47,149 nucleotides of DNA from Escherichia phage JeanPiccard. Of the stretch, positions 576-36,656 are shown piece after piece. Location: sequence record MZ501080; one strand, 5' to 3'. Within the stretch, counting starts at the first letter, position 1. Every line of letters starts with the position of its first letter. Made by a program: the position numbers and the translations under genes. The notes below the pieces were generated by a model. The model saw nothing but the letters and a program-made list of their open reading frames with translations. It made no database searches and had not been told where the DNA came from.

Positions 576-1052
576 ATGGATTGGGGTGATTTTTTCTATT
601 TAAGCAGCGAATCTCCTAGTGGTCTAAAATGGAAAGTTGACAAAGGGAGGGTAAGGGCTGGCGATAACGCTATAACGGCAATTGGTAATGGCTATTACAA
701 GGGCAGGTTAAACCAGGTGACTGTTTATGCCCACAGGGTAGTTTATTTTCTTGCGTACGGAGTAAAGCCAGAGGTAATAGATCACATTGATGGTGATGGC
801 CTTAATAACTCAATAGACAATCTTCGAGACGGAACAACAAGGCAGAATATGCAAAACAGAGCGTGTAAGGGCTACAGCTACAACAAAAGGGATGACGTTT
901 ATTACGCGCAGATAACAAAGAATGGGGTGACTAGACATATTGGGTCTTTCTCCACAAAGGAATCAGCCATAGCTGCATACCTAAGAGAGAAGTCTTTAGT
1001 TCATGAGTTTTATAATGAGGAAAGAGATATATGCTCATCTGGGAAGAAATGA
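576..1052 (+). CDS. HNH homing endonuclease with AP2-like DNA-binding domain
   Basis: HIDGDGLNNSIDNLR HNH motif; C-terminal AP2-like segment; inserted between terS and terL; paralog at 13303..13779. Confidence 0.8.
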   Translation: MDWGDFFYLSSESPSGLKWKVDKGRVRAGDNAITAIGNGYYKGRLNQVTVYAHRVVYFLAYGVKPEVIDHIDGDGLNNSIDNLRDGTTRQNMQNRACKGYSYNKRDDVYYAQITKNGVTRHIGSFSTKESAIAAYLREKSLVHEFYNEERDICSSGKK

Positions 1053-7694: not shown

Positions 7695-8124
7695 AAATAT
7701 TGGAAGCGTGGCTACCTTTGAGAAATCTATTGCTGACTGGATTGACAGGGCTGATAAAGGTTTCGATATTGTAGTGGCTAATACTGTCATTAAGACAGCT
7801 AACGCAATTGTAGACCTTTCCCCTGTCGACACAGGTAGGTTCAAAGCTAACTGGCAAATCACCGCAAATTCACCAGCCCAGCAATCATTGAATGAGTACG
7901 ATCAGACTGGTGGGCAGACGAAAACATATCTCGCCAGACAGGCTAGGGCAGTCGCCAACTCAAAAGCCACTAGTGTTATTTATATCACCAACCGACTTGA
8001 TTACGCAGCAGACCTTGAGTACGGGGCTTCAAATCAGGCTCCGGCTGGCGTTCTTGGTGTGGTGCAAGCAAGGTTGGGCAGGTATTTCCAGGAAGCGGTA
8101 GAGGAGGCTCGTCGTGCAATATGA
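7687..8124 (+). CDS. putative neck / tail completion protein (HK97 gp10-like)
   Basis: 145 aa from ATG 7687 with AGGGTGG RBS; segment DTGRFKANW reminiscent of HK97 gp10-type neck proteins. Confidence 0.5.
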   Translation: MARNIGSVATFEKSIADWIDRADKGFDIVVANTVIKTANAIVDLSPVDTGRFKANWQITANSPAQQSLNEYDQTGGQTKTYLARQARAVANSKATSVIYITNRLDYAADLEYGASNQAPAGVLGVVQARLGRYFQEAVEEARRAI

Positions 8125-8515
8125 ATTATCATTAGCAGCAAGGAAATTCGTCAACGATTTGTTGGTAAATGAATTTCCGGTCAGGTATCCAGTTGCGTGG
8201 GAGAATGCTGCATTCACTCCTCCGGCTGATGGCTCAATCTGGCTTAAGTACGACTACACAGAAGCTGACACGGTAACCTATGGCCTGAGCAGGAAGTGCA
8301 AATACTACTTAGGCATGGTCCAGATTTCTGTTTTCTTCAGCCCGGGCACTGGAGTTGATAAGCCTAGGCAAATCGCTAATCAATTGGCAGAATCTATCGT
8401 TGATGGTACAATGCTTGACAGCGGGACCATTTATGAGTCTGGAGTTGTTAACCCGGTTATCAAATCCAAATCTGGGTGGTTTATCCCGGTTCGTTTTTAT
8501 GTTCGTCTAGACTAA
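8114..8515 (+). CDS. putative tail terminator protein
   Basis: GTG start with GAGGAGG RBS 7 nt upstream; immediately precedes major tail protein gene. Confidence 0.5.
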   Translation: MQYELSLAARKFVNDLLVNEFPVRYPVAWENAAFTPPADGSIWLKYDYTEADTVTYGLSRKCKYYLGMVQISVFFSPGTGVDKPRQIANQLAESIVDGTMLDSGTIYESGVVNPVIKSKSGWFIPVRFYVRLD

Positions 8516-8530
8516 CAAAAGGAAAAATAC

Positions 8531-9187
8531 ATGGCTCATTTATCAAACGGCACTCAGGTGTTCGTAGAAGGCTCTCGCGGAGCTGCAATTGACGTAACTG
8601 CAATCTCTAACGCAGTTACCCCTGTTTTAACTGTATCTGACGCATCCGGATTGGTTGTTGGTGATTATCTGCTTTTCACCTCCTCAGCCTCCACGCTTCT
8701 GGCTGATAAGCAAGTTCGCGTAACTGCAATCACTGGCACGTCAGTAACTGTTGAGGGTATTGATACCTCCAGCACCACCAAGTTCCCGGCTGGCTTAACT
8801 GGTGAAGTTGTTAAGATTACTTCCTGGTTCGAAGTTCCGTGCGTTCAGGACGTATCTACTGATGGCGGCGAACAGCAGTTCGTTAACTTCCAGTGTCTTT
8901 CTGATGACCGTGAACAGCAGATTCCGACTTACAAGTCTGCCGTAACAAACACCTTTACCTTTGCTCACGAGTACACTAACCCGGTTTACCCGGTTCTGCG
9001 TAACTATGATGAGTCTGGTCAGGTTGTTGCAATTCGTCTGTTCGTACCTCGCGCTCAGGAAATGCGCTTGCAGTCCGGAACCATCGCTTTCAACGACACC
9101 CCTACCATTGGTGTTAACGAAATCGAGACGGTATCCATCGCAGTATCCATTCGTGGTCGCCTGTCATCTGTGGCAGCTGAAGTTTAA
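8531..9187 (+). CDS. major tail (tube) protein
   Basis: 218 aa; position before chaperone/tape-measure genes; strong terminator downstream. Confidence 0.75.
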   Translation: MAHLSNGTQVFVEGSRGAAIDVTAISNAVTPVLTVSDASGLVVGDYLLFTSSASTLLADKQVRVTAITGTSVTVEGIDTSSTTKFPAGLTGEVVKITSWFEVPCVQDVSTDGGEQQFVNFQCLSDDREQQIPTYKSAVTNTFTFAHEYTNPVYPVLRNYDESGQVVAIRLFVPRAQEMRLQSGTIAFNDTPTIGVNEIETVSIAVSIRGRLSSVAAEV

Positions 9188-9194
9188 AACACAA

Positions 9195-9216
9195 ACCCTC
9201 TTCGGAGGGTTTTTTA
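9195..9216 (+). terminator. rho-independent terminator
   Basis: hairpin AACCCTCttcgGAGGGTT followed by T5. Confidence 0.7.
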
Positions 9217-9221
9217 TTGCA

Positions 9222-9239
9222 TAGCACTTTTTGATAAAG
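9222..9239 (+). promoter_or_regulatory. dyad motif TAGCACttttTGATAAAG (family copy b)
   Basis: motif family member; followed by TATAGTTAACTCATCTAAACGAA leader. Confidence 0.4.
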
Positions 9240-9297
9240 CGTTAATTCAATCTTCCTGTATAGTTAACTCATCTAAACGAAATGAGAGATTAAAGAA

Positions 9298-9546
9298 ATG
9301 AATAACGTTAAAAACATCATCAAACTTACTGCGGTTCTTGTTGCTTTTTATGCAGTGGTTCAGATTGTTAACCCAACTAGCGAGGCTGATGCCAGCAGCA
9401 AGGTAAATAAATATACTGTTGAATTTGCTAAGGCTGAGAGAGCATGTCAGGAGCTTGTAGGAGGAAAAGTTGACCAAATCATGAAATATGGCAAAGAGGT
9501 TTGTAAGGACTCGGCTGCTAAGATTGCAAAAGAAAACACTAAGTAA
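9298..9546 (+). CDS. small secreted/membrane protein (moron-like)
   Basis: 82 aa; N-terminal hydrophobic signal-like segment IIKLTAVLVAFYAVVQIV; own motif-promoter inside tail module. Confidence 0.5.
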   Translation: MNNVKNIIKLTAVLVAFYAVVQIVNPTSEADASSKVNKYTVEFAKAERACQELVGGKVDQIMKYGKEVCKDSAAKIAKENTK

Positions 9547-9585
9547 TAGAATACATACTCACAAACAATAAGAGGATTAACTAAG

Positions 9586-9900
9586 ATGGCAAAGTTCAAA
9601 CTTTCACTGGCGGCACTGCCAGACTTCAAGCTACCAGTAAAATTCAAACTGGCTAACGACCAGGATGTAGAGGTTATTTTTACAGTTAAGCACAAGAAGA
9701 CCTCTGAGCTTCAGGAGTTACTACAGAAAGAAGACCTGAGTACTAAAGAATTGATTATGGCAATCGCCTCTGATTGGGACTTGGAAGAGGAATACAACGA
9801 AGATAACGTCAATGAGTTCTCCGACCTGTTCCCTGCTTCAACTGTAGCGCTAACTACCGCTTACATGCAGGCGCTTGCTGGTCAGCGAGTAAAAAACTAA
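9586..9900 (+). CDS. tail assembly chaperone (lambda G-like)
   Basis: 104 aa acidic protein before tape measure; ends at slippery A AAA AAC. Confidence 0.7.
   Translation: MAKFKLSLAALPDFKLPVKFKLANDQDVEVIFTVKHKKTSELQELLQKEDLSTKELIMAIASDWDLEEEYNEDNVNEFSDLFPASTVALTTAYMQALAGQRVKN
9891..9897 (+). other. programmed -1 ribosomal frameshift slippery heptamer A_AAA_AAC
   Basis: last two sense codons of G-like ORF; the -1 frame is open from here through 10208. Confidence 0.6.
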
Positions 9901-9908
9901 AACGAGCG

Positions 9909-10208
9909 GTGTATCTTCAGTACCAGTCAGAGCCAACAGATGCCGAACTGGAAGCTATTGGGATGCGCCGCTCTGATTACGAAGGTGAAGAGCCTGAAGT
10001 TTTACACTTCGATGACAACATGATGAAGGCGTGGGACATTTATTGTTCAATGGCTACACAGTGGCGAGTCGGAGTTAACGGAGCTACAGGACTTGATTAC
10101 AACGTGCTAAATTTCCTCTTTAGAGTGTATAATGTTTCTGAAGAAGAATTGGTGCTCAGCGATTTACGCATCCTTGAAGCTAAGGCTCTTGAGATGATGA
10201 AAACCTGA
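9909..10208 (+). CDS. tail assembly chaperone frameshift extension (lambda GT-like); expressed as a 9586..10208 fusion
   Basis: ORF in -1 frame relative to G-like gene with no independent ATG or RBS (first codon GTG); classic G/GT arrangement. Confidence 0.65.
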   Translation: MYLQYQSEPTDAELEAIGMRRSDYEGEEPEVLHFDDNMMKAWDIYCSMATQWRVGVNGATGLDYNVLNFLFRVYNVSEEELVLSDLRILEAKALEMMKT

Positions 10209-10218
10209 GAAAAAAAAT

Positions 10219-10241
10219 AACCCGCTTCGGCGGGTTTTCTA
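10219..10241 (+). terminator. rho-independent terminator
   Basis: hairpin AACCCGCttcgGCGGGTT followed by TTTCT; A-run upstream. Confidence 0.6.
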
Positions 10242-10255
10242 TTATGGAGGCTTAG

Positions 10256-13231
10256 ATGGCAACAAATGAATTAGCCGGAATCACGCTAGCCGTAGACGTA
10301 TCGCAGGTAGATAGGGGAACGCAATCCCTACAGAAGTTCAGGCAGGCTAACCAACAGGCCGCTTCCGGGATTAGTGAATTCATAAACGCTGAGCAGGTTG
10401 CTAAAAACCAGGCGAGAGATACAGCTCGCGCACTTGCTGAGCAACAGGCATCACTGGCTAAGCTGCAAACTGCGATTGATCCAACTGCGGCAAAGTTCCG
10501 TAAGCTGCAAGAGGCGGCCGTAGGTCTTGATAAGGCGTTCGCTGCTGGCGTAGTTCCTGATGAGGAATTTTTCCGATTAGGTGAGGCTCTTGAAACGCAG
10601 AATGCAAAACTTGCGCGTTCACGCGCAGCTTTAACCGAGGAGGGGAGGGCGGCGGCTCAAGCGGCAAAGGAGAAAGCGGCAGCAAAAGCAGCAGCGGATA
10701 GATTTATCGCATCACTTGAGCGACAAGCTCAAGCTGCGACGCTGACTCGTGAGGAGTACTTAAAGCTACAGGCTGCACAGCTTGGTGTTAGTTCTCAGGC
10801 TGCGCCTATTATTGACAGAATCGCTGAGGCTTCAGAGCGAGCAAATGTTCAATTAGCAAACCAAAGCAAGGCTTTTCAGAAGTCCGGGCTAAGTGCCGGG
10901 CAATACAAGAACGCCATTAGCCAACTGCCAGCACAGATTACAGATATTGGAACATCACTTGCTGGTGGCATTCCGATTTGGCTTATTGCAATTCAGCAGG
11001 GCGGACAAATTAAGGATGCATTCGGAGGTATTGGTAACACATTTAGATTCGCGCTGGCTGCACTAAACCATTTTAATGTTGCTGTTGGCGTTTTGGGAGG
11101 CGCACTCGTCGCTCTCGGTATTGGCGCGGCTCAGGCTGAAAGTGAATTCAGGGCATTGAACTCTGCCATTGCATTCTCAAACAACTCGACAATCACTTCA
11201 ATCTCGCAAATTAGACAGTTGGTTAGCTCTGTTTCTGACGCTACCGGCGCCACCAGAGGACTGGTAACCAGCATCGCAACAAGCCTTGTTGAGCAAGGAA
11301 ACCTTACGCTAACGCAGATTGATAAGATTACTAAATCAACAGCAAGATGGGCGCAGTTGACAGGTAAGGATGCAAAGGAGATTACTGGTTACTACAACCA
11401 GATTGCAAGCGACCCAATCCAGGGTTTAGTTGACTTGGATAAGCGCTTTAACTTCCTCACACAGGGGCAGCTGACGACAATCGAAAACCTGAGAAAGACA
11501 AAGGGGGAGGTCGAGGCCGTTACCGCCGCGATTGATATTTTCAGCAAGTCGCAGGAAGCCAACCTTAACGACATTGCAGCTCAATTAACTCCACTTGAGT
11601 TAGCATGGAATGACTTCAAGAAGTACATCTCTGATGTCTGGGATGCAATTAGCCGTAGAACACTAGGTGCTTTAAACCTGTTTGTTGACGTAATAGCAGG
11701 AACAATTGAGCAAATCAGGGTCTTCCTTAACCAGGGTGACGTTCTGATTGGTGAATTCGTAATCAGCGCAACTCAGGCATTGCAGAACATACCTGGCCTT
11801 GATGGTGTTGGTGATGATGTTATCAAGGGGCAGCAGAAGATTATCGATGCCGCCAAGAAGCAAAACCTTGAGCTAGAGAAGTCCATCAGGGAGCGAGATG
11901 CCAGAATCAGAGAGGGAGAGCTTGGTTACGTTAATCGCAGAGAGAATCAGAATACCAATGAGCAATCAGGGACCGATGAGGAATTCGCAAAAAGGAAGAA
12001 GGCACTTCAGGATGAGCTTGACGCGATCAAGAAAAACAGGAAAGAGGAAAATGGGAGGGTTAATGAGCAAAGGGATTTAACAATAGGTTATGAATCTGGC
12101 GTTCTGGCACTTCAGGCTCAACTCAAGGTTCTTCAGGAAAATCGGGATATTGGCGCAGTAATAAGCAATGAGCGCAAGCAGTATCTTCAGGAGGAGGCTA
12201 AATTCAGGATCCTTGAGCAGAGGCAGCTTGATGGCTCGATTACCAAAGAGCAAGCGAGACTTATCGTTGAAAAGGACAAAGTTCTTGAGTTGGCCAAGCA
12301 GAAGGCTGAACTAGGTGATCAGATTGTTTTGCAGGAGCGCGCCAATAAGTTAGCTGAAGATAACCGCAAGAAGATTCTTCAGATTAACAATGAGGCAAAT
12401 AACATTGATTTAGGCGCTGGATTGTCATCTCGAGAGCAGCAGAGAGCCAAAGAGATTCAGGCCCTCCAGTCCAATCAGGTTAATGCTGGTGGCGCACTTG
12501 ATGACGTGGATTTTCAGCAACTCCTCGAAGCAAGACGCAACTTTTACGCTCAGGAGGATGCGCTACGTGAAAACTGGCTCGCTGGCGTGAATCAATCCTT
12601 TGCCAATTGGGCTGAGAGCGCTAAGGATGCATTCTCAATTGCTGGAAGTTTAACCACAACAGTCTTTGAGGGCATTACCGACCAGATTACAAACCTTGTA
12701 ACAACTGGCGAGACAAACTTCAGGGAGTTTACTGTAAGCATCCTTAAGCAGATTGCTAAGATTGCGGCTCAGCTTCTTGTTGTCAAGGCAATTGAGTCTA
12801 GCTTAAGTAGCTTCGGTGGCACTGGTGGCGCTATTGGTTCAATTGCCTCAGCTATAGGTTTTGCTGGTGGCGGCTACACTGGTGATGGCGGGAAGTATCA
12901 GCCAGCAGGAACCGTACACCGCGGTGAGTTTGTATTCACAAAAGAAGCAACAAGCCGAATTGGTGTTAAGAACCTTTACGCGCTAATGAAGGGATACGCA
13001 AACGGTGGCGCTGTAGGTGGTCCATCTGGTTATGCTAATGGCGGTTTGGTTTCTGGTGGGTCAGATGTTAATGTTAGTGGCATCACCGTTAACGTTAATG
13101 GTGGCGTTGGTAGCGACCCAGAACAGGCCAAGGCATTGCAGAGTGGCGTTAAGGCTATCGTTGCGGAAGAAATTGCTCAGTCTTTCCAGCAGGGTGGAAA
13201 AGCGTATGCCTACCTGAGGGGCTTTAACTAA
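10256..13231 (+). CDS. tail tape measure protein
   Basis: 991 aa, Ala/Gln/Glu-rich coiled-coil composition, Gly-rich C-terminus; located after G/GT chaperones. Confidence 0.9.
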
Positions 13232-13302: not shown

Positions 13303-13779
13303 ATGAACTGGAATGATATTTTCGATTATAGGGATGGTGTTCTTTATTGGAAGATAAGTCCGAGGTCAAGAACCCCAATCGGATCAGTTGCCGGACATTT
13401 ATCAAAGGCTGGCTATATAACAACGTCATACATGAAGAGGGCTCTTCTTGCCCATAGGGTTGTGTGGGAAATGCATAACGGACCAATACCAGAAGGAATG
13501 CAGATAGACCACATAAATCACAACAGAAGTGATAACAGGATTTGCAATTTAAGACTTGCTACTGTTTTTGATAACAATCAAAACATGAGCAGAGGTAAGG
13601 GAAATAGAAGTGGCGTTGTTGGTGTTAGCTGGCATAAGAGCGCAAAAAAGTGGTGCGCTGAGATTCATGCGAATGGCAAAAAGAAATACCTCGGCGTGTT
13701 TGATAGTTTTGATGATGCGGTTCTCGCTAGAAAGAGCGCAGAGTTACATTTTGGTTTTCATGAAAATCACGGAGCATAA
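13303..13779 (+). CDS. HNH homing endonuclease with AP2-like domain (second copy)
   Basis: IDHINHNRSDNRICNLR HNH motif; AP2-like C-terminal part; inserted between tape measure and tail tip genes. Confidence 0.8.
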   Translation: MNWNDIFDYRDGVLYWKISPRSRTPIGSVAGHLSKAGYITTSYMKRALLAHRVVWEMHNGPIPEGMQIDHINHNRSDNRICNLRLATVFDNNQNMSRGKGNRSGVVGVSWHKSAKKWCAEIHANGKKKYLGVFDSFDDAVLARKSAELHFGFHENHGA

Positions 13780-16329: not shown

Positions 16330-19300
16330 ATGGCTGAAGAGATTAAGATTTATGGTGCTAAAGGCGGTAGCCAGAAGCAGCATCAACCAGTGGAGCAGGA
16401 AGATAACCTTATTTCACTTAACAAGGTTAAGGTATTGCTTGCGGTTGCTGACGGAGAGGTGGATCCAAACTTCTCAATGAAGGATTTATACCTTGCTGAC
16501 GTTCCGGTGCAAAACCAGGATGGTAGCTACAACTACGAAGGTGTTCGCGCTGAGTTCCGTGCTGGCACGCAGTATCAGGACTATATCGCTGGCCTTGATG
16601 GTGCAAACTCAGAGATTCAGGCATCCAGAGAAATCACGAACGATACCCCGTATATCATCGCGGTTAACAATACTCAGCTATCAGCAATTCGAGTTAAGCT
16701 ATTTTGGCCTCGACTAGTTAAGCAAGAAAGTAACGGCGACCTGAACGGTACGACATGTGAGTATGCAATTGACCTATCTGTTAATGGTGGAGTATATCAG
16801 GAATACACTCGCGGAGTTGCTAACGGTAAGACAACTACAGGTTACGACCGCAGCATTCGTGTCAACCTTCCGGCAGAGTTTGATAGCGCACTGGTTCGAA
16901 TCCGTAAGATTACGCCAGACTCAACTAGTAGCACGCTGGTCAACGGAATGCAGATTACAACCTATCAGGAAGTAATCGACGCTAAATTCCGCTATCCGCT
17001 TACCGCCCTGGTTTATGTTGAGTTTGGCTCTGACTTGTTCCCTAACGGAATCCCAACAATTTCTATAAAGAAGCGCTGGAAGTTGATTCAGGTACCGACA
17101 AACTACGACCCGGAGACGAGAACTTACAGCGGGACATGGAATGGACTGTTCAAAATGGCATGGTCAAACAACCCAGCTTGGGTTCTTTATGACTTAGTGA
17201 CAAACCGCCGATATGGTCTTGACCAGCGAGAACTAGGTGTAGAGATTGATAAGTGGGGTCTTTACGAGGCTGCGCAATTCTGCGACCAGATGGTGCCGGA
17301 TGGTAAGGGTGGTTTAGAGCCTCGTTATCTTTGCGATATGGTTGTACAGAACAAGGTTGAGGCCTACACGCTAATTCGTGATATCTGTTCAATCTTCCGT
17401 GGTCTGACTTTCTATGATGGAGAAAAGATTGGCATCGTAGTTGATAAGCCTCGTAATCCATCATACATCTTCACGAATGATAACGTTGTAAACGGATTGT
17501 TCAGCCGCACCTTTGCCAGTGATAAGAGTCTTTACACCACTGCAAACGTTCAGTTTGATGATGTTGAGAACAACTATCAGCAGGATGTTGAGCCAGTTTT
17601 TGAACTCGAGGCTACTCGAAGATTTGGCTTTAACCCTGTTGACCTCACGGCTATTGGCTGTACTCGCAGAAGTGAGGCAAACAGGCGCGGCAGGTGGCTC
17701 CTAAAAACCAACCTGAGAAGCGAAACTATCAGCTTCACTACCGGGTTGGAAGGTATGATTCCGATGGTTGGCGAGGTAATTGCGGTCAATGACGCTGCAT
17801 GGTCGAGCAACTATCAGTTAAACCTTTCTGGTCGCATTGAATCAGTTCAGGGATTGCAGGTTTTCACCCCTTTTAAAGTTGACGCAGCGCCTGGTGACAG
17901 AATTCTTCTGAACAAGCCAGACGGAAGTCCAGAGGCAAGAACTATTGCCAGCGTTTCGGAGGATGGAAGAACAATCAACCTTAACACTGCTTTTAGTTTT
18001 GTAGCTCAACCTGACACTGTTTTCGCAATCGATAAGGATAATATCGCGCTTCAACAGTATGTTGTGACCGGGATTCAAAAAGCAGACTCTGATGGTTCGG
18101 ATTCATTTCAGTATACGATTACAGCAGTAGAGTATGACCCGAACAAGTATGACGAGATTGACTACGGGGTTAACATTGTTGACCGTCCAACTTCAATTGT
18201 GGAACCTGACAGATTGTCGCCGCCCGAGAACTTAACAGTATCAAGCTACAGTAAGGTTGTTCAGGGTTTGTCGGTTGAGACGATGGTTATCGGATGGGAT
18301 AAAGCGCCATACGCTAAAACATACAATGTTCAGTGGAGAAAAGAAAATGGCAACTGGATTAACGTACCCAGAACAGCAAGTACAGAGGTTGATATTGAGG
18401 GCATTTACGCAGGAATCTATGACGTTAGGGTTCGCAGCGTATCAGATACTGAAAACGTATCTGCCTGGTCTGACATTGTAACGGTATCGCTAACTGGCAA
18501 GATTGGTCGCCCATCTGCGCCTACGGTTATCACGGCTTCAACTGATGAGGTATTTGGAATTCGTGTTAAGTGGGGTTTCCCTGAAGGATCCGGTGACACT
18601 GCTTACACTGAACTTCAGCAGGTCGCTGATAATGGTGACGGCACTTACAATCCTGATAACGCAAGTTTGCTTACGTTACTGCCGTACCCAGCATATGAAT
18701 ACTGGCACACGCCAATTCAGCCAGGAAAGGTTATCTGGTATCGCGCTAGATTGATCGACAGAATAGGTAATACCTCTGATTGGTCTGACTTTGCTAGAGG
18801 TATGAGCACTGACGATGCCAACATCATCAACGATTACATCAAAGTTGATATTGAAGGCTCAGAAGGATTCAAATATCTCGAGCAGAATGCGATTCAAAAG
18901 AATCAGGACATTCAGAATCAAGCTGAGGCAATTATCGAGAACGCATTAGCTAATGACACTGATGTTCGTCGCATGACTAAGGAGAACGGAAAACGTAAGG
19001 CTGAATATGTTCAGGCAGTGAATCTCATAGCTGATGAAACTCAGGCGCGTGTGGAGGCTCTCACGGCCCTTAAAGCACAGATAGATGATGAGATTGTTGG
19101 TCAGATTACGACTATTGAAACGGCGCTGGCTACAGAGACTGAAGCTAGAGCTACGGCTGACACTCAGCTATCAGCAAGGATTGGTGATAACGAGGCGGCG
19201 CTAAACCAGAAGCTAGACGCTTTTGCTAACGCTGAGTCAACTGGAGTTCAGTATGGGATTAGTTTGGGCCTTAACTATAATGGTCAGACTTATTCATCCG

Positions 19301-19729: not shown

Positions 19730-20662
19730 TTAATACATGTCTGGAAGGTAAGGCAATGGAGTGGATATTGTTACGTCAGGTCTGTTTCCAATCTCATATC
19801 TTACAATCCTTGATCCAGTTCCCGATCGAACATAACCATTACTCATTACGATTCCTTTGTTTCTTAACTCCTTGTAAGCTGGAATTGCCCTGGTGTTAAA
19901 TCCGCATCTTAATATTGGGAAGTAGGATTCGCCAATATACTGATTGCTACCTGATAGGTTTATGAATCCAGAAACAACCAACGGCCTTGTAACGGTTGAT
20001 AAAGTGCAAACACCATTAGAGTTAAATATGTTCAATCCGGGTCCTGGTATTGGCGCAACCATCTGAAAAATAATCAAGTCCATAGTGACACTTCCAGGAG
20101 TGTCTCCAGTATCTTCAGTGTTTATGTTTGTGCATATCAGTTGATTGCTCCCGTTGTATTCAACCGAGACGCCGGAGTTATTCCACTTTCCAAATGGTAT
20201 CCCATAAATTGGCAGCGTGTATGTGTTGGTGAAAGATATCCTCTGAGCAAACTTGCACACCAACAACCTGTCAGTGGTGGTTATCGAAGTAAAATCTGTG
20301 CTATTGGCAACATAAATACCCTGACCAGTAGATGCTCTTAGTACCTCAACAACAGTACCAGAAAATTGAGTTATACGGTCAGAATATCCATTCTCATAGC
20401 CAATCGATATTGTTCCGCTTGATGCTGTTGATGAGAATCCATTTATGTAGTAAACCTCAACGCCCCTATCAAGTTCGAATGAGTAGGCACCATTATTAGG
20501 GATTAGGAACCTTGACGCTCCTTCATTACCCTGGATTGAAAAAGTTTTGCTAAATCCACCACTAGAAACGTTGAAGTTGCCAGCAAAGTTCAAGGCACGC
20601 ATCCCTGCGGTTATTGTCATTGGCTTTCTTCCGTCATTGAGGTCTATATAAATACCTTGAGC
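19730..20662 (-). CDS. hypothetical beta-rich protein co-transcribed with lipoprotein (possible receptor-binding or exclusion partner)
   Basis: 310 aa from ATG 20662 (AAGGAG RBS, TAATG overlap with upstream gene); Gly/Ser/Thr/Asn-rich. Confidence 0.45.
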   Translation of the reverse strand, partial: AQGIYIDLNDGRKPMTITAGMRALNFAGNFNVSSGGFSKTFSIQGNEGASRFLIPNNGAYSFELDRGVEVYYINGFSSTASSGTISIGYENGYSDRITQFSGTVVEVLRASTGQGIYVANSTDFTSITTTDRLLVCKFAQRISFTNTYTLPIYGIPFGKWNNSGVSVEYNGSNQLICTNINTEDTGDTPGSVTMDLIIFQMVAPIPGPGLNIFNSNGVCTLSTVTRPLVVSGFINLSGSNQYIGESYFPILRCGFNTRAIPAYKELRNKGIVMSNGYVRSGTGSRIVRYEIGNRPDVTISTPLPYLPDMY

Positions 20663-20664
20663 CA

Positions 20665-20895
20665 TTAATTCCACTCCTTAGAACCATAATCACGAACGGA
20701 CCCACTGGAGCCTTTAATTCCATCGTAGCGAATATCAATTTCACCAGCCGGAACAATTACGCCGCTTTTCCATTTAGCTACGCACACTCCGTTTGAGGAT
20801 GTAGCGCACCAACCATCTGGGCGAGGACCAGATGAGCAGCCTACCATCATGATTGCTGCTGCGGAGATGATTACTGATTTGATGAAGTTATTCAT
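20665..20895 (-). CDS. lipoprotein, Cor-like superinfection exclusion candidate
   Basis: signal peptide [19 protein letters not shown] followed by Cys (lipobox MVGC); about 76 aa; adjacent to tail genes. Confidence 0.55.
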
Positions 20896-20960: not shown

Positions 20961-20978
20961 TTTAGCAATTCGTGCTAT
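20961..20978 (-). promoter_or_regulatory. dyad motif (minus orientation, copy d) overlapping methyltransferase stop codon
   Basis: TTTAGCAATTCGTGCTAT is the reverse complement of ATAGCACGAATTGCTAAA. Confidence 0.4.
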
Positions 20979-28097: not shown

Positions 28098-28115
28098 TAG
28101 CACGATTTGCTAAAG
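28098..28115 (+). promoter_or_regulatory. dyad motif TAGCACgattTGCTAAAG (family copy g)
   Basis: located between tail fiber start and primase terminator, plus orientation. Confidence 0.3.
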
Positions 28116-29142: not shown

Positions 29143-29616
29143 TTACTCTTTAGCTTTTCGTGCTGCTTCGTTGGCGGCCTTGATCTTGCGCCATGATCGA
29201 CACTCTGGCTTGGTGGCTAATTCAGCCTCAGTAACAACGCGCAGCATGTGACGTTTTTTGCATCGTAGTGTAAGCGGTTTTCCGTTACCGTCGAATTGCA
29301 GGTCCGGTCGACAGAATGTAGCGCGAAAACCTTCCCCAGTTCGTTTGTAGTAGTTATGCGACAGTTGAGCGCCACGTGCAGAAATCATACCACGCTTAAA
29401 CCATTCTTCCACGGCCTGAGGAGTTACCTTTAGCTGCTTTGCGATATTCGCCTTTGTGCCGAAGAAATCAAGTAGCATCTCAAGCCGCGCACGTAGCCCT
29501 GCCCTTACTTCATCTTTTAAAACGTAGTAGCCTGAAGGTCGTTTGCGCTTCTTTTTGTCTTCAGTGCGGACGGTTCCGTTATTCCCGTTAATGGTTCGCT
29601 TGTCTACTGCATTCAT
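29143..29616 (-). CDS. HTH DNA-binding protein (putative transcriptional regulator)
   Basis: helix-turn-helix-like segment ANIAKQLKVTPQAVEEWFKRG; basic termini. Confidence 0.55.
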   Translation of the reverse strand: MNAVDKRTINGNNGTVRTEDKKKRKRPSGYYVLKDEVRAGLRARLEMLLDFFGTKANIAKQLKVTPQAVEEWFKRGMISARGAQLSHNYYKRTGEGFRATFCRPDLQFDGNGKPLTLRCKKRHMLRVVTEAELATKPECRSWRKIKAANEAARKAKE

Positions 29617-29629
29617 TTCATCACCTCAA

Positions 29630-29648
29630 TAGCATTTTTTGTTAAAAG
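29630..29648 (+). promoter_or_regulatory. dyad motif TAGCATttttTGTTAAAAG (family copy h) in divergent intergenic region
   Basis: one mismatch from family consensus; upstream of helicase gene. Confidence 0.35.
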
Positions 29649-29717
29649 TCATTCTGGTTTAATGGTATTATTGTAATCAATTAAACGCTACAAGACAATT
29701 TTTATAGGAATTTAGAT

Positions 29718-35511: not shown

Positions 35512-35589
35512 GTGCTTCTTTTACGAGCAGGGCTAATGTATCATTCTTTTACTAACTTAAACATTGACAAATACATAAAGGTGGATCAC

Positions 35590-35805
35590 ATGAGGGAAGT
35601 AATTAACGCCGCTACGGCATCAACTGGCGGTGCCGCGGTAACTGGCGCAGCAACTGGTCAAATGACCATAGCAATAATCAGTCTTATCGCTCTTATCATT
35701 TTTGGTGCGTGGGGGGCTTACTGGAAGTATAAGGACAGCCAGGCGATTCGCAGAGCACTTGAGTCGGGAGATTTAAAGACAGCAATCAAGATAAGGAGCA
35801 AATAA
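35590..35805 (+). CDS. holin (single-TM, pinholin-like)
   Basis: 71 aa from ATG 35590 (AAAGGTGG RBS); one TM segment MTIAIISLIALIIFGAWGAYW; charged C-terminus; precedes endolysin. Confidence 0.6.
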   Translation: MREVINAATASTGGAAVTGAATGQMTIAIISLIALIIFGAWGAYWKYKDSQAIRRALESGDLKTAIKIRSK

Positions 35806-36291
35806 ATGAAGCAGAAGCTGCTAATTAGCGCGGCTACGGCTGCGGCAATATACATCGCAGCACCGCTTATTGAGCTCGTTGAGGGTGTGGAGAACGAGAC
35901 TTACATAGACATTGCCGGGGTGAAAACCGTATGCGCAGGTGTCACTGGCCCTGACGTGGTTTGGGGTAAAACATACAGCAACAGTGAATGCCGGAAGCTG
36001 CTGGAGAAACACATTCAAATTCACGCAAAGCATGTTCAGAATGCAGTTACCCACCCAATTGCACCGCAGACAATGGCGGCTTTAATCAGTTTTAGCTACA
36101 ACGTTGGCGGTCATGCCATGAAGAATTCAACGGCAATCCGACTAATCAATCAGGGTAAAGTGGAGCAGGGTTGCAAGGCTCTCGGGATGTGGACAAAGGC
36201 TACCGTTAATGGCAAGAAGGTTGTCGTTAAGGGGTTAGTGAATCGCAGGAATGAGGAGATTAAGTTATGCTTAAGTGGGTTGCAGCGTTAG
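35806..36291 (+). CDS. endolysin, lysozyme-like with N-terminal SAR (signal-anchor-release) domain
   Basis: weakly hydrophobic Ala/Gly-rich N-terminus LLISAATAAAIYIAAPLI followed by lysozyme catalytic region ENETYID...T. Confidence 0.8.
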   Translation: MKQKLLISAATAAAIYIAAPLIELVEGVENETYIDIAGVKTVCAGVTGPDVVWGKTYSNSECRKLLEKHIQIHAKHVQNAVTHPIAPQTMAALISFSYNVGGHAMKNSTAIRLINQGKVEQGCKALGMWTKATVNGKKVVVKGLVNRRNEEIKLCLSGLQR

Positions 36292-36656
36292 TAATGTGCG
36301 TATCTTTATCTGGATGTTCAGCGACTGATGCACTGACCGGATTGATTGGCAGTAAGCCGGAAATTAGTGCGCAGGCTGGTGCAGAGAATAACAAGGTTGG
36401 AGTTGGGTTAACGAATAAGGTTGACTCAAGTAACTCCAGCGAAGCCACTGTGAAAGACTCTAAAGTTGGCTCGCTAGATAGCTCAAGCGGGAAAAAGACT
36501 GCTGACAACTCTATTAAGGCATCTACAATCACCGCGGAAAAGATTGAGATTACCAACAACGAATCATCCGCACTTCCGTGGATTGGAACTGGAGCAATGG
36601 GGTTGCTGGTTCTGATTCTCATGGCATTAATCTTAAGACGTAAAAAAGCCTCCTAA
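36267..36656 (+). CDS. unimolecular spanin (u-spanin, T1 gp11-like)
   Basis: N-terminal lipoprotein signal with lipobox LSGC, Ser/Thr-rich periplasmic region, C-terminal TM GAMGLLVLILMALIL then RRKKAS. Confidence 0.7.
   Translation: MLKWVAALVMCVSLSGCSATDALTGLIGSKPEISAQAGAENNKVGVGLTNKVDSSNSSEATVKDSKVGSLDSSSGKKTADNSIKASTITAEKIEITNNESSALPWIGTGAMGLLVLILMALILRRKKAS

What the first reader, a model, noticed from the sequence alone, without database searches (positions are those of the whole stretch)
9222..9546. Moron-like small secreted protein gene inserted in the tail module with its own motif-promoter
Between the major tail protein terminator and the chaperone genes lies a dyad motif, a TATAGT leader and an 82-aa ORF with an N-terminal signal-like hydrophobic segment and two Cys. 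Independent transcription signals inside a late operon are typical of morons that modify the host cell surface or periplasm.
Basis: partly seen in the sequence, partly recalled or inferred. Interest (0 to 1): 0.45.

Follow-up and report, generated by a model that had tools for sequence, protein, structure and literature searches.

The report
Exported mini-protein cassette in tail operon
A T1-like virulent coliphage carries, between its tail-tube gene and its tail-chaperone genes, an extra self-promoted gene for an 82-residue protein that is most likely exported to the periplasm; it is a real but uncharacterised accessory gene, and it may block re-infection of the infected cell.

Summary
Window 9193-9546 holds the major-tail-protein terminator, a dyad motif (9222-9237), a TATAGT -10 box (9259-9264) and an 82-aa ORF (9298-9546). 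The ORF has a Sec-type N-terminus and two conserved Cys. The phage is a Braunvirinae (Rtp/Guelphvirus-like) member of the T1 family.

The gene is under purifying selection (dN/dS 0.07-0.26). It is an ORFan: 81 phage records, 39 protein clusters, and no remote homologue among 1.84 billion representatives. T1, Rogunavirinae, Tempevirinae and Klebsiella relatives have no gene at this position. Rtp-type phages carry an unrelated lipoprotein there, behind the same promoter.

The promoter is not foreign. It is one of 20 copies (0.96 expected) of the phage's own stereotyped promoter, which also drives the Cor-like lipoprotein gene and two HNH genes. There is no terminator after the ORF, so transcription runs on into the chaperone genes.

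The type of gene in the slot follows the type of the tape-measure protein's central segment in all ten lineages examined. It does not follow the chaperone or receptor-binding types.

Best reading: an exported accessory protein. Its function is inferred, at roughly 0.3-0.4, to be superinfection exclusion at the DNA-injection step, as with HK97 gp15. It is a new member of a known kind, of moderate interest.

The parts
9193..9218 (+). Intrinsic terminator of the major tail protein gene (stem 9193-9212, then a T run). It forms the left border of the slot.
   Evidence: The same sequence is found in Rtp, ACG-M12, 12210I, CY1 and TR1.
9222..9237 (+). Dyad promoter motif TAGCACTTTTTGATAA (half-sites TAGCA / TGATA). 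Its centre lies about 42 nt upstream of the inferred transcription start.
   Evidence: (20 copies against 0.96 expected). Conserved in relatives while the spacer varies.
9259..9264 (+). -10 hexamer TATAGT, 21 nt after the motif. It is followed by the shared leader (TAACTCATCTAAACGAAATGAGAGA).
   Evidence: One search shows the same spacing in 18 of 20 copies. Searches show the shared leader.
9284..9289 (+). Shine-Dalgarno-like GAGAGA, 8 nt before the ATG.
   Evidence: Sequence. The same element occurs in the other motif-promoter leaders.
9298..9546 (+). 82-aa ORF (phrog_22925). Codons 1-30/32 (9298-9393) encode the signal-peptide-like segment. Codons 31/33-82 encode the predicted periplasmic helix, with Cys50 (9445-9447) and Cys69 (9502-9504).
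9524..9552 (+). Sigma-70-like promoter TTGCAA-17-TAGAAT. It overlaps the 3' end of the ORF and serves the chaperone genes. The TAGAAT box corresponds to the TATAAT that follows the terminator in relatives lacking the ORF.
   Evidence: phiSITE promoter annotated at the same place in EC3a. Comparison with L004/L005.
9553..9585 (+). Ancestral chaperone leader (ACATACTCACAAACAATAAGAGGATTAACTAAG). It forms the right border of the insertion.
   Evidence: homologous to the leader in Rogunavirinae, where it directly follows the MTP terminator.
9586..10208 (+). Tail assembly chaperone genes (G-like 9586-9900, T-like 9909-10208). They are co-transcribed with the ORF because no terminator intervenes.
10219..10236 (+). 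Next intrinsic terminator, which ends the ORF82-chaperone transcription unit.
10256..13231 (+). Tape measure protein (TMP). The type of its central segment (about aa 260-600) co-varies with the type of gene in the slot.

Best explanation
This is a lineage-specific accessory cassette of Braunvirinae, a subfamily of the T1-like phages.

Architecture. Directly after the major-tail-protein terminator sits a copy of the phage family's own stereotyped promoter: a dyad TAGCA-N5-TGNTA centred near -42, no -35 box, and TATAGT at -10. It transcribes an 82-aa ORFan preprotein and, by read-through, the chaperone genes.

Likely fate of the protein. The N-terminus has two Lys, a 15-residue hydrophobic core, and NPT followed by SEA/ADA. 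It should direct Sec export with N-in/C-out topology and probably cleavage after Ala30 or Ala32. This would release, or if uncleaved anchor, a Lys-rich amphipathic helix of about 50 residues with two Cys in the periplasm.

Likely function. I infer that it acts on the envelope of the already infected cell as a post-adsorption superinfection-exclusion factor. It would interfere with the step at which an incoming tape measure protein crosses the periplasm and inner membrane. HK97 gp15 works this way, and the T4 proteins Imm and Sp act at comparable post-adsorption steps (from my own knowledge).

What is shown and what is inferred.
- Shown: the gene is real and under constraint, it is inserted, it has a recurrent promoter in front, and it has export-signal features.
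- Inferred: actual export and cleavage, the timing of expression, and the function.

My confidence is about 0.8 for the architecture and export, and about 0.3-0.4 for the exclusion mechanism. The single score given here (0.4) refers to the whole statement, mechanism included.
For: The gene is real and constrained.
- dN/dS is 0.07-0.26.
- Both Cys and a stripe of residues (Y39, F43, C50, K57, Q60, C69, I76) are conserved down to alleles about 50% identical.

It is an insertion or accessory gene.
- It is absent from T1, Rogunavirinae, Tempevirinae and Klebsiella relatives.
- It is found in only 81 phage records and 39 protein clusters.
- A profile search of 1.84e9 representatives found only its own cluster.
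- Its G+C is low.
- In ACG-M12 the allele is 52% identical while all flanking tail proteins are 92-98% identical, which indicates allele replacement.

The promoter is genuine.
- There are 20 copies against 0.96 expected, with fixed geometry.
- The conserved boxes with a variable spacer are seen in relatives.
- The same promoter type precedes the Cor-like exclusion lipoprotein gene at 20977(-).

The protein looks exported.
- The sequence features fit a Sec signal.
- SignalP 4.1 was positive for the 94%-identical MSK_000011 (PMC8421802).
- The targeting segment is conserved (82-88% nt identity) while the periplasmic part diverges fast (51-55%).
- AlphaFold2 models the mature part as one helix, pLDDT 85.

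The slot holds envelope-targeted genes in relatives.
- Rtp34 is a 128-aa protein with the lipobox LLAGC. TR1 has a 126-aa lipoprotein with LTGC. CY1 has an extra 46-aa hydrophobic ORF. All sit behind the same terminator, promoter and leader.

There is a link to the tape measure protein.
- In all 10 lineages examined, the ORF82 family goes with the W-type TMP centre and the lipoprotein family with the R-type centre.
- This holds across three chaperone-gene types, and the chaperone genes lie between the slot and the TMP gene.
- It is independent of the receptor-binding protein and Cor type.

Precedent: the HK97 gp15 moron lies in the tail operon next to the TMP gene, encodes a small inner-membrane protein, and blocks DNA entry in a tail-dependent way (PMC3594210).
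Against: - No experiment bears on export, cleavage, expression timing or function.
- There is no sequence or fold similarity to any known exclusion protein: Pfam, NCBIfam, PADLOC and PDB sequence searches were all empty.
- The association between slot gene and TMP type may simply reflect common descent, with the chaperone genes replaced by a double crossover. The number of independent events is small (at least 2).
- TR1's lipoprotein is only 31% identical to rtp34 although its TMP centre is 95% identical to Rtp's. The two loci therefore do not co-diverge.
- A single 50-residue helix is not a self-sufficient fold, and the full-length model has low confidence (pLDDT 64).
- The phage already has a receptor-level exclusion lipoprotein (Cor/Rtp45-like), so a second exclusion layer is plausible but not required.
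- The promoter also feeds essential chaperone genes, so part of the conservation of the cassette could come from that role.
Confidence: 0.4

Rival explanations
1. It is an uncleaved, inner-membrane-anchored regulator of the phage's own lysis or envelope programme. An example would be an antiholin-like or lysis-timing factor of the T4 RI type, which has an N-terminal signal anchor and a small periplasmic helical domain.
For: - The overall architecture fits: an N-terminal hydrophobic segment plus a roughly 50-aa helical periplasmic part.
- TMHMM called a transmembrane segment in the MSK homologue.
- The N-terminal segment is more conserved than the rest, as expected if it works in the membrane.
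Against: - The gene is not in the lysis cassette, and that cassette is complete: holin, endolysin and spanin at 35584-36653.
- The hydrophobic core is only 15 residues and is followed by N-P and small residues at -3/-1, which fits a cleaved signal better.
- Most Drexlerviridae with the same lysis genes lack the ORF.
- An unrelated lipoprotein replaces it in Rtp.
Confidence: 0.13
2. It is an exported factor aimed at something other than the phage's own kind. It might exclude unrelated phages or colicins, or counter a host envelope-associated defence.
For: - The same export and accessory evidence applies.
- The periplasmic part evolves fast and alleles are replaced, which suggests an arms-race interface.
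- The slot is exchangeable and holds different envelope proteins in relatives.
Against: - No similarity to known anti-defence or defence proteins.
- The perfect association with the phage's own TMP type points to a self-related target rather than a foreign one.
Confidence: 0.2
3. It is a tail or virion assembly component, such as a small structural protein or assembly factor. On this view the hydrophobic N-terminus is not an export signal.
For: - It lies between the tail tube and chaperone genes and is co-transcribed with the chaperones.
- It co-varies with the TMP type, which a TMP-binding assembly factor would also do.
Against: - It is absent from most Drexlerviridae that have homologous tails.
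- It is replaced by a bona fide lipoprotein in Rtp-type phages with 94-97% identical tail proteins.
- It has signal-peptide features and a SignalP call.
- No virion-proteome report was found. The MSK study gives only SDS-PAGE band sizes and does not list it.
Confidence: 0.06
4. It is a passenger or leader ORF with no function of its own. On this view it is kept only because the promoter and its translation help express the downstream chaperone and TMP genes.
For: - There is no terminator between the ORF and the chaperones.
- In Rtp the slot gene is followed by only 18 nt before the chaperone start, so the motif promoter is the chaperones' only visible promoter.
Against: - Purifying selection acts on the mature part, with invariant Cys and a conserved residue stripe.
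- A separate sigma-70-like promoter for the chaperones is retained at 9524-9552.
- Relatives without any ORF express the chaperones from a short leader.
Confidence: 0.05

Closest known systems
HK97 gp15 moron (Cumby et al. 2012; reviewed in PMC3594210)
   Same: - It is an extra small gene inside the tail operon, next to the chaperone and tape-measure genes.
- It has its own promoter and a G+C content unlike its neighbours.
- Its product goes to the cell envelope.
- It blocks DNA entry in a way that depends on the incoming phage's tail region.
   Different: - There is no sequence similarity: gp15 belongs to the YebO family, and ORF82 has no Pfam hit.
- gp15 sits between the chaperone and TMP genes, whereas ORF82 sits between the MTP and chaperone genes.
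- gp15 has its own terminator and is expressed from a prophage.
- ORF82 has no terminator, uses the phage's standard promoter and belongs to a virulent phage.
- The function of ORF82 is untested.
T1 Cor / T5 Llp / Rtp45 superinfection-exclusion lipoproteins
   Same: - They are small exported phage proteins made in the infected cell that act on the envelope.
- In this window the Cor/Rtp45-like gene (20668-20895, minus strand) is driven by the same dyad promoter type.
- The alternative occupant of the slot in Rtp and TR1 is also a lipoprotein.
   Different: - ORF82 has no lipobox: there is no Cys before residue 50.
- It is not linked to the receptor-binding gene, and it does not follow the receptor-binding or Cor type.
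- Cor, Llp and Rtp45 act on the outer-membrane receptor (PMC12685063, PMC9586334).
T4 Spackle (Sp) and Imm (from my own knowledge; not tested here beyond family searches)
   Same: They are small proteins of a virulent phage carrying an N-terminal signal or anchor. They act in the periplasm or inner membrane to stop a superinfecting phage after adsorption.
   Different: - There is no detectable sequence relationship: the Pfam and PDB sequence searches were empty.
- Sp targets a tail lysozyme, which T1-like phages are not known to carry.
- Their genomic context is different.
Lambdoid morons in general (lom, bor; Juhala et al. 2000 definition as given in PMC3594210)
   Same: It is an add-on gene absent from close relatives at the same position, with deviating G+C and its own promoter, and it encodes an envelope protein.
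   Different: It has no terminator of its own, it is not expressed from a prophage, and its promoter is native to the phage family.

Membership tests
Moron in the strict sense (Juhala/Hendrix definition, PMC3594210) | Extra gene present in some phages and absent at the same position in related phages | tested here: met
   Absent in T1, Rogunavirinae, Tempevirinae and Klebsiella relatives. Replaced by an unrelated gene in Rtp.
Moron in the strict sense (Juhala/Hendrix definition, PMC3594210) | Own promoter | tested here: met
   Met at sequence level only. The dyad plus TATAGT architecture is shared with 18-20 other sites. Transcription has not been measured.
Moron in the strict sense (Juhala/Hendrix definition, PMC3594210) | Own downstream terminator (an autonomous transcription unit) | tested here: not met
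   No terminator-like site between 9546 and 9586. The next one is at 10219-10236, after the chaperone genes.
Moron in the strict sense (Juhala/Hendrix definition, PMC3594210) | G+C content different from the surrounding genes | tested here: met
   ORF 0.39 (GC3 0.36) against flanks of 0.44-0.49 (GC3 0.45-0.50). The sample is small, at 249 nt.
Moron in the strict sense (Juhala/Hendrix definition, PMC3594210) | Expressed from the repressed prophage, to the benefit of the lysogen | tested here: not met
   The window is a Drexlerviridae genome, a virulent family by established knowledge. No integrase or repressor appears in the gene map.
Sec-type cleavable signal peptide | Positively charged n-region, hydrophobic h-region of about 10-15 residues, and a polar c-region with small residues at -3/-1 | tested here: met
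   K5 and K9; L10-V24; N25-P26; S28-E-A30 and A30-D-A32. These features are kept in divergent alleles, including the rewritten N-terminus of ACG-M12. SignalP 4.1 was positive for the MSK homologue.
Sec-type cleavable signal peptide | Actual export and cleavage | not testable with these tools
   Needs PhoA or Bla fusions, fractionation, or N-terminal mass spectrometry.
Bacterial or phage lipoprotein (Cor/Llp/Rtp45-like) | Lipobox [LVI][ASTVI][GAS]C at the end of the signal peptide | tested here: not met
   The first Cys is residue 50. By contrast, rtp34 has LLAGC, TR1 has LTGC, and the window's Cor-like protein has MVGC.
HK97 gp15 / YebO family | Sequence similarity to YebO/gp15 | tested here: not met
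   No Pfam family at E<=10. The profile search of 1.84e9 proteins found only its own cluster.
Known anti-phage defence or exclusion protein families (PADLOC, NCBIfam) | Profile match | tested here: not met
   No PADLOC hit. The only NCBIfam match is a chance one, far below its cutoff.
PHROG 22925 (unknown function) | Full-length profile match | tested here: met
   E=1.1e-52, residues 1-82 matched to profile positions 1-82 of 82.

The most novel reading that the evidence does not exclude
The space between the MTP and chaperone genes of Braunvirinae may be a dedicated cassette site for post-adsorption superinfection exclusion proteins. On this reading the proteins are specific to the tape-measure type. 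Two unrelated exported families would each neutralise the incoming tape measure protein of their own type in the periplasm or inner membrane: the 82-aa helical protein with the W-type TMP centre, and the rtp34 lipoproteins with the R-type centre. That would give virulent T1-like phages a second exclusion layer at the injection step, beside the receptor-level Cor/Rtp45 layer.
Probability: 0.25. Interest if true: 0.65.

Novelty: new member of a known kind. Interest (0 to 1): 0.4.

Why it matters
If the inference holds, T1-like virulent phages carry a second, exchangeable exclusion system that works at the DNA-injection step and is matched to the tape measure protein.

- It would give a simple genetic handle for asking which part of a siphophage tape measure protein contacts the periplasm and inner membrane during genome delivery. 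Two natural cargo/TMP pairs exist, and each cargo type occurs on both major chaperone backgrounds.
- These phages are frequent fermentation and laboratory contaminants and are candidates for therapy. Exclusion determinants affect how phage cocktails are designed.

If the function turns out otherwise, the finding is still an ordinary example of a small accessory envelope protein of unknown role.

Tried and rejected
- Canonical sigma-70 promoter upstream of the ORF: none found. TTGATA (9231-9236) is 22 nt from TATAGT, too far to serve as a -35 box.
- Sigma-54 reading of the motif (TGGCAC-N5-TTGC): rejected by inspection. The AG-to-GC spacing is 2 nt too short, and a fixed -10 box follows.
- Known RNA family in 8000-11000: none.
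- Pfam, NCBIfam, PADLOC and PDB sequence searches for the ORF: empty.
- Exhaustive profile search: found only its own cluster.
- AlphaFold2, full length: low confidence (pLDDT 64). The mature part is modelled as one long helix. I did not run a fold search, because a single helix has no discriminating fold.
- Lipoprotein reading of ORF82: rejected, because there is no lipobox.
- Association of the slot gene with receptor type: rejected. The window has an Rtp-like RBP and Cor (80% and 84%) but carries ORF82. G8 and ACG-M12 have a different RBP (40%) and also carry ORF82. OzMSK (ORF82) and Rtp and AugustePiccard (lipoprotein) all use LptD.
- Broad survey of the slot through IMG/VR with the chaperone protein: only 14 loci, mostly phages already seen.
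- Literature: no paper on ORF82, rtp34 or the dyad promoter was found. The Rtp genome paper is not held. The MSK 'proteome' is only SDS-PAGE band sizes.

Full report
**Context.** The window is an almost complete genome of a virulent T1-like siphophage of E. coli.
- It belongs to Drexlerviridae, subfamily Braunvirinae, close to Guelphvirus, Veterinaerplatzvirus and Rtpvirus.
- It is 90-93% identical at nucleotide level to vB_Ec-G8, EC3a, IME253 and MSK.
- Mapping the G8 proteins onto the window gives a standard late operon. TerS lies at 1-504. The tail terminator is at 8114-8512, the major tail protein (MTP) at 8531-9187, the finding's ORF at 9298-9546, and the chaperones at 9586-9900 and 9909-10208. 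The tape measure protein (TMP) is at 10256-13231, followed by the minor tail proteins and a J-like protein.
- On the minus strand lie a receptor-binding protein (RBP, 19733-20665) and a Cor/Rtp45-like lipoprotein (20668-20895).

**The observation.**
- The terminator has its stem at 9193-9212, followed by a T run.
- The motif TAGCACTTTTTGATAA lies at 9222-9237.
- TATAGT lies at 9259-9264.
- An SD-like GAGAGA lies at 9284-9289.
- The 82-aa ORF reads MNNVKNIIK-LTAVLVAFYAVVQIV-NPTSEADA-SSK..., with Cys50 and Cys69.
- The generic sigma-70 scan finds no -35/-10 pair here.

**The promoter is real but native to the phage.**
- The 16-mer TAGCACNNNNTGNTAA, with at most 1 mismatch, occurs 20 times in the window against 0.96 expected.
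- In 18 of the 20 copies a TATAGT/TATAAT-like hexamer lies exactly 21 nt downstream, and an ATG lies 67-88 nt from the motif start.
- The half-sites TAGCA/TGCTA form a dyad centred about 42 nt upstream of the inferred start, where a -35 box would otherwise be.
- In relatives the dyad, the -10 box and the leader are conserved while the spacer sequence varies.
- T1 has 22 copies and Rtp 21. This is the family's standard promoter, not an imported one.
- In the window it precedes the early-looking small genes, replication genes, the gene just upstream of the lysis cassette, and the Cor-like lipoprotein gene (20977, minus strand).
- Within the structural block it precedes only three non-structural inserts: two 158-aa HNH genes (starts at 576 and 13303) and this ORF.

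**The ORF is a real, constrained, lineage-restricted gene.**
- dN/dS against six relatives is 0.07-0.26.
- It matches phrog_22925 (function unknown) over its full length. It matches nothing in Pfam, NCBIfam, PADLOC or PDB sequences.
- tblastn finds it in 81 phage records, all Braunvirinae-like, whereas the neighbouring MTP has homologues in 1140 records.
- A word-indexed search of 5.8e9 proteins found 39 clusters, mostly on phage-sized or short contigs.
- An exhaustive profile search of 1.84e9 representatives found only its own cluster.

**It is an insertion into an exchangeable slot.**
- In Rogunavirinae (Sadiya, phiKP26), Tempevirinae (orkinos), a Klebsiella relative and T1, the MTP terminator is followed after 45-100 nt by the chaperone start.
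- The Rogunavirinae leader, TATAAT-TTCAACTCAAACAAACACGAGAGGATTA, is still recognisable in the window downstream of the ORF (TAGAAT-ACATACTCACAAACAATAAGAGGATTA, 9547-9585). It sits there with a sigma-70-like promoter, TTGCAA-17-TAGAAT (9524-9552).
- The inserted block is therefore roughly 9219-9546, that is, promoter plus ORF.
- Its G+C is 0.39 (GC3 0.36) against 0.44-0.49 for the flanking genes.
- In ACG-M12 the tail proteins are 92-98% identical to the window's, but this protein is only 52% identical.
- In Rtp, AugustePiccard, MM01 and RobRod40 the same terminator, dyad, -10 box, leader and SD are followed by an unrelated 128-aa gene, rtp34. Its N-terminus MKAIIAIMATLLLAGC is a classic lipobox.
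- TR1 has a homologue 31% identical to rtp34, with LTGC.
- CY1 has an additional 46-aa hydrophobic (two-transmembrane-like) ORF ahead of its ORF82 allele.
- The slot thus collects small envelope-targeted proteins.

**Export.**
- The N-terminus has the n-, h- and c-regions of a Sec signal. The charge distribution (K5 and K9 before the core, E29 and D31 after it) predicts N-in/C-out topology.
- These features persist in the ACG-M12 allele although the sequence there is rewritten.
- In the MSK genome paper, gene numbering places MSK_000011 between the MTP (000010) and the TMP (000014). It is the 94%-identical homologue, and it is one of only two SignalP-positive proteins of that phage. The other is the Cor-like lipoprotein (PMC8421802).
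- Codons 1-26 are 82-88% identical at nucleotide level in the divergent alleles, against 51-55% for codons 27-82. The targeting segment is conserved and the periplasmic part evolves fast.
- AlphaFold2 gives low confidence for the full length. It models the mature 52 residues as one long helix, pLDDT 85. The helix has a moderate hydrophobic moment and an i/i+3/i+4 stripe that includes the conserved residues.
- That is compatible with an oligomeric or partner-bound helix. I could not decide whether the two Cys form a disulfide.

**A functional clue.** The slot gene's family follows the type of the TMP's central segment.
- The window and Rtp TMPs are 92-98% identical over most of the first 250 residues, 14-24% identical over about residues 300-600, and similar again in the C-terminal third.
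- The divergent part starts inside the TMP_2 domain, at its second hydrophobic segment.
- The window, G8, ACG-M12, CY1 and two metagenomic contigs (L034, L035) carry ORF82 alleles and the W-type centre (56-96% identity).
- Rtp, TR1 and two metagenomic contigs (L032, L033) carry rtp34-family lipoproteins and the R-type centre (73-95% identity).
- The chaperone genes lie between the slot and the TMP gene and come in at least three types. Two of these (win/Rtp-like and CY1/TR1-like) occur with both combinations.
- The RBP and Cor type does not follow the slot gene. Both kinds of phage use LptD (PMC13035648, PMC12685063).
- This association is suggestive, not proof. It may reflect descent plus replacement of the chaperone genes by a double crossover. 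The number of independent events is small. TR1's lipoprotein is far more diverged than its TMP centre.

**Mechanism proposed.**
- A periplasmic protein made in the infected cell can meet a tape measure protein only when another virion injects, because progeny TMP stays in the cytoplasm. This step is my inference.
- The precedent is HK97 gp15: a small envelope protein encoded next to the TMP gene that blocks DNA entry in a tail-dependent way (PMC3594210).
- The gene also shares its promoter type with the known exclusion lipoprotein gene.
- Taken together, the most economical reading is a post-adsorption superinfection-exclusion factor.
- I put this at about 0.3-0.4. The underlying architecture (an accessory, self-promoted, exported mini-protein) I put at about 0.8.
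- The rivals, each weighed in its own section of this report, are a membrane-anchored lysis or envelope regulator, a factor aimed at other phages or host defences, an assembly component, and a functionless leader ORF.

**Comparison with known systems.**
- It works like a moron in that it is an add-on envelope gene with its own promoter and deviating G+C.
- It fails two defining features of the strict definition. It has no terminator of its own, and there is no prophage expression because the family is virulent.
- Its promoter is native to the phage and also feeds essential downstream genes.
- It is not a lipoprotein, not a YebO/gp15 relative, and not a member of any catalogued defence or exclusion family.

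**Verdict.** This is a new member of a known kind (a small accessory envelope protein of a phage), its function is inferred only, and it is of moderate interest. The most novel reading still open is a TMP-type-matched exclusion cassette site.

Noticed in passing
window 505, 9222, 13232, 24012, 28098, 29630, 32131, 32457, 33285, 42304, 42831, 43648, 44281, 45210 (+); 20977, 21725, 38666, 39449, 40600 (-): A stereotyped promoter recurs about 20 times: the dyad TAGCAC-N4-TG-N-TAA, then 21 nt, then a TATAGT-like -10 box, then a shared leader (..CCATCGAAACGA..GAGAGG..) and an ATG about 75 nt from the motif. There is no -35 box. The dyad centre lies near -42, the position of a class II activator site. 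T1 has 22 copies and Rtp 21. I found no description of it in the papers I could search. The factor that reads the dyad is unknown; the phage HTH regulator at 29146-29652 (minus strand) is a candidate.
   Followed up: partly
L036 (T1) 18834-18849 and L006 (orkinos) about 2232-2253: In T1 and in the Tempevirinae phage orkinos, the spacer between the MTP and chaperone genes carries the same dyad motif in reverse orientation. It points back into the MTP terminator, with a TAAGAT box at the usual distance in T1. It could give an antisense or short transcript. This is unexplained.
   Followed up: no
window 576-1052 and 13303-13779 (+): Two paralogous 158-aa ORFs are inserted in the late operon, one between TerS and TerL and one between the TMP and the minor tail protein. 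Each has its own dyad promoter. The 13303 copy is 41% identical to the G8 HNH endonuclease. The 576 copy occupies the position of Rtp's HNH gene rtp20, but I did not scan it against any family. Apart from the finding's ORF, they are the only genes with a motif promoter in the structural block.
   Followed up: partly
window 10256-13231 (TMP), residues about 260-600: The central segment of the tape measure protein exists in two non-alignable types. The W type is 990-1016 aa where the gene is complete, and the R type is 918-922 aa. The N-terminal part (about 250 aa) and the C-terminal third are largely conserved. The switch starts in the second hydrophobic segment of the TMP_2 domain.
   Followed up: partly
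L012 (Rtp) 16380-16766; L030 (TR1) 1109-1489; L009 (CY1) about 1042-1182: Other genes occupy the same slot. The rtp34 lipoprotein family has only 14 protein clusters in the protein database searched. TR1 has a lipoprotein 31% identical to rtp34. CY1 has an unannotated 46-aa hydrophobic ORF (MILIGMLTAFFYYATGLTFWVSLGAAIGTYFVSALLALIVRALRNR, phrog_16572).
   Followed up: partly
window 19733-20895 (-): The RBP (311 aa) and the Cor-like lipoprotein (76 aa, lipobox MVGC) are 80% and 84% identical to Rtp44 and Rtp45, but only 40% and 70-73% identical to those of the otherwise closest genomes (G8, ACG-M12). Rtp45 binds LptDE (PMC12685063), so this phage probably uses LptD as its receptor.
   Followed up: partly
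public records seen: Near-identical genomes are deposited as 'Campylobacter phage A110b', 'Pseudomonas phage PsgS01F' and a 46.7-kb contig of 'Nitratidesulfovibrio liaohensis' (P0036). These are probably contaminating coliphage or wrongly assigned hosts.
   Followed up: no
window 28098-28113 (+): One motif copy is not followed by a -10 box at the usual distance. Instead a terminator-like hairpin follows (AAAAAACCTCCCGAAGGAGGTT). It lies between the converging tail-fibre and primase genes, and its role is unclear.
   Followed up: no
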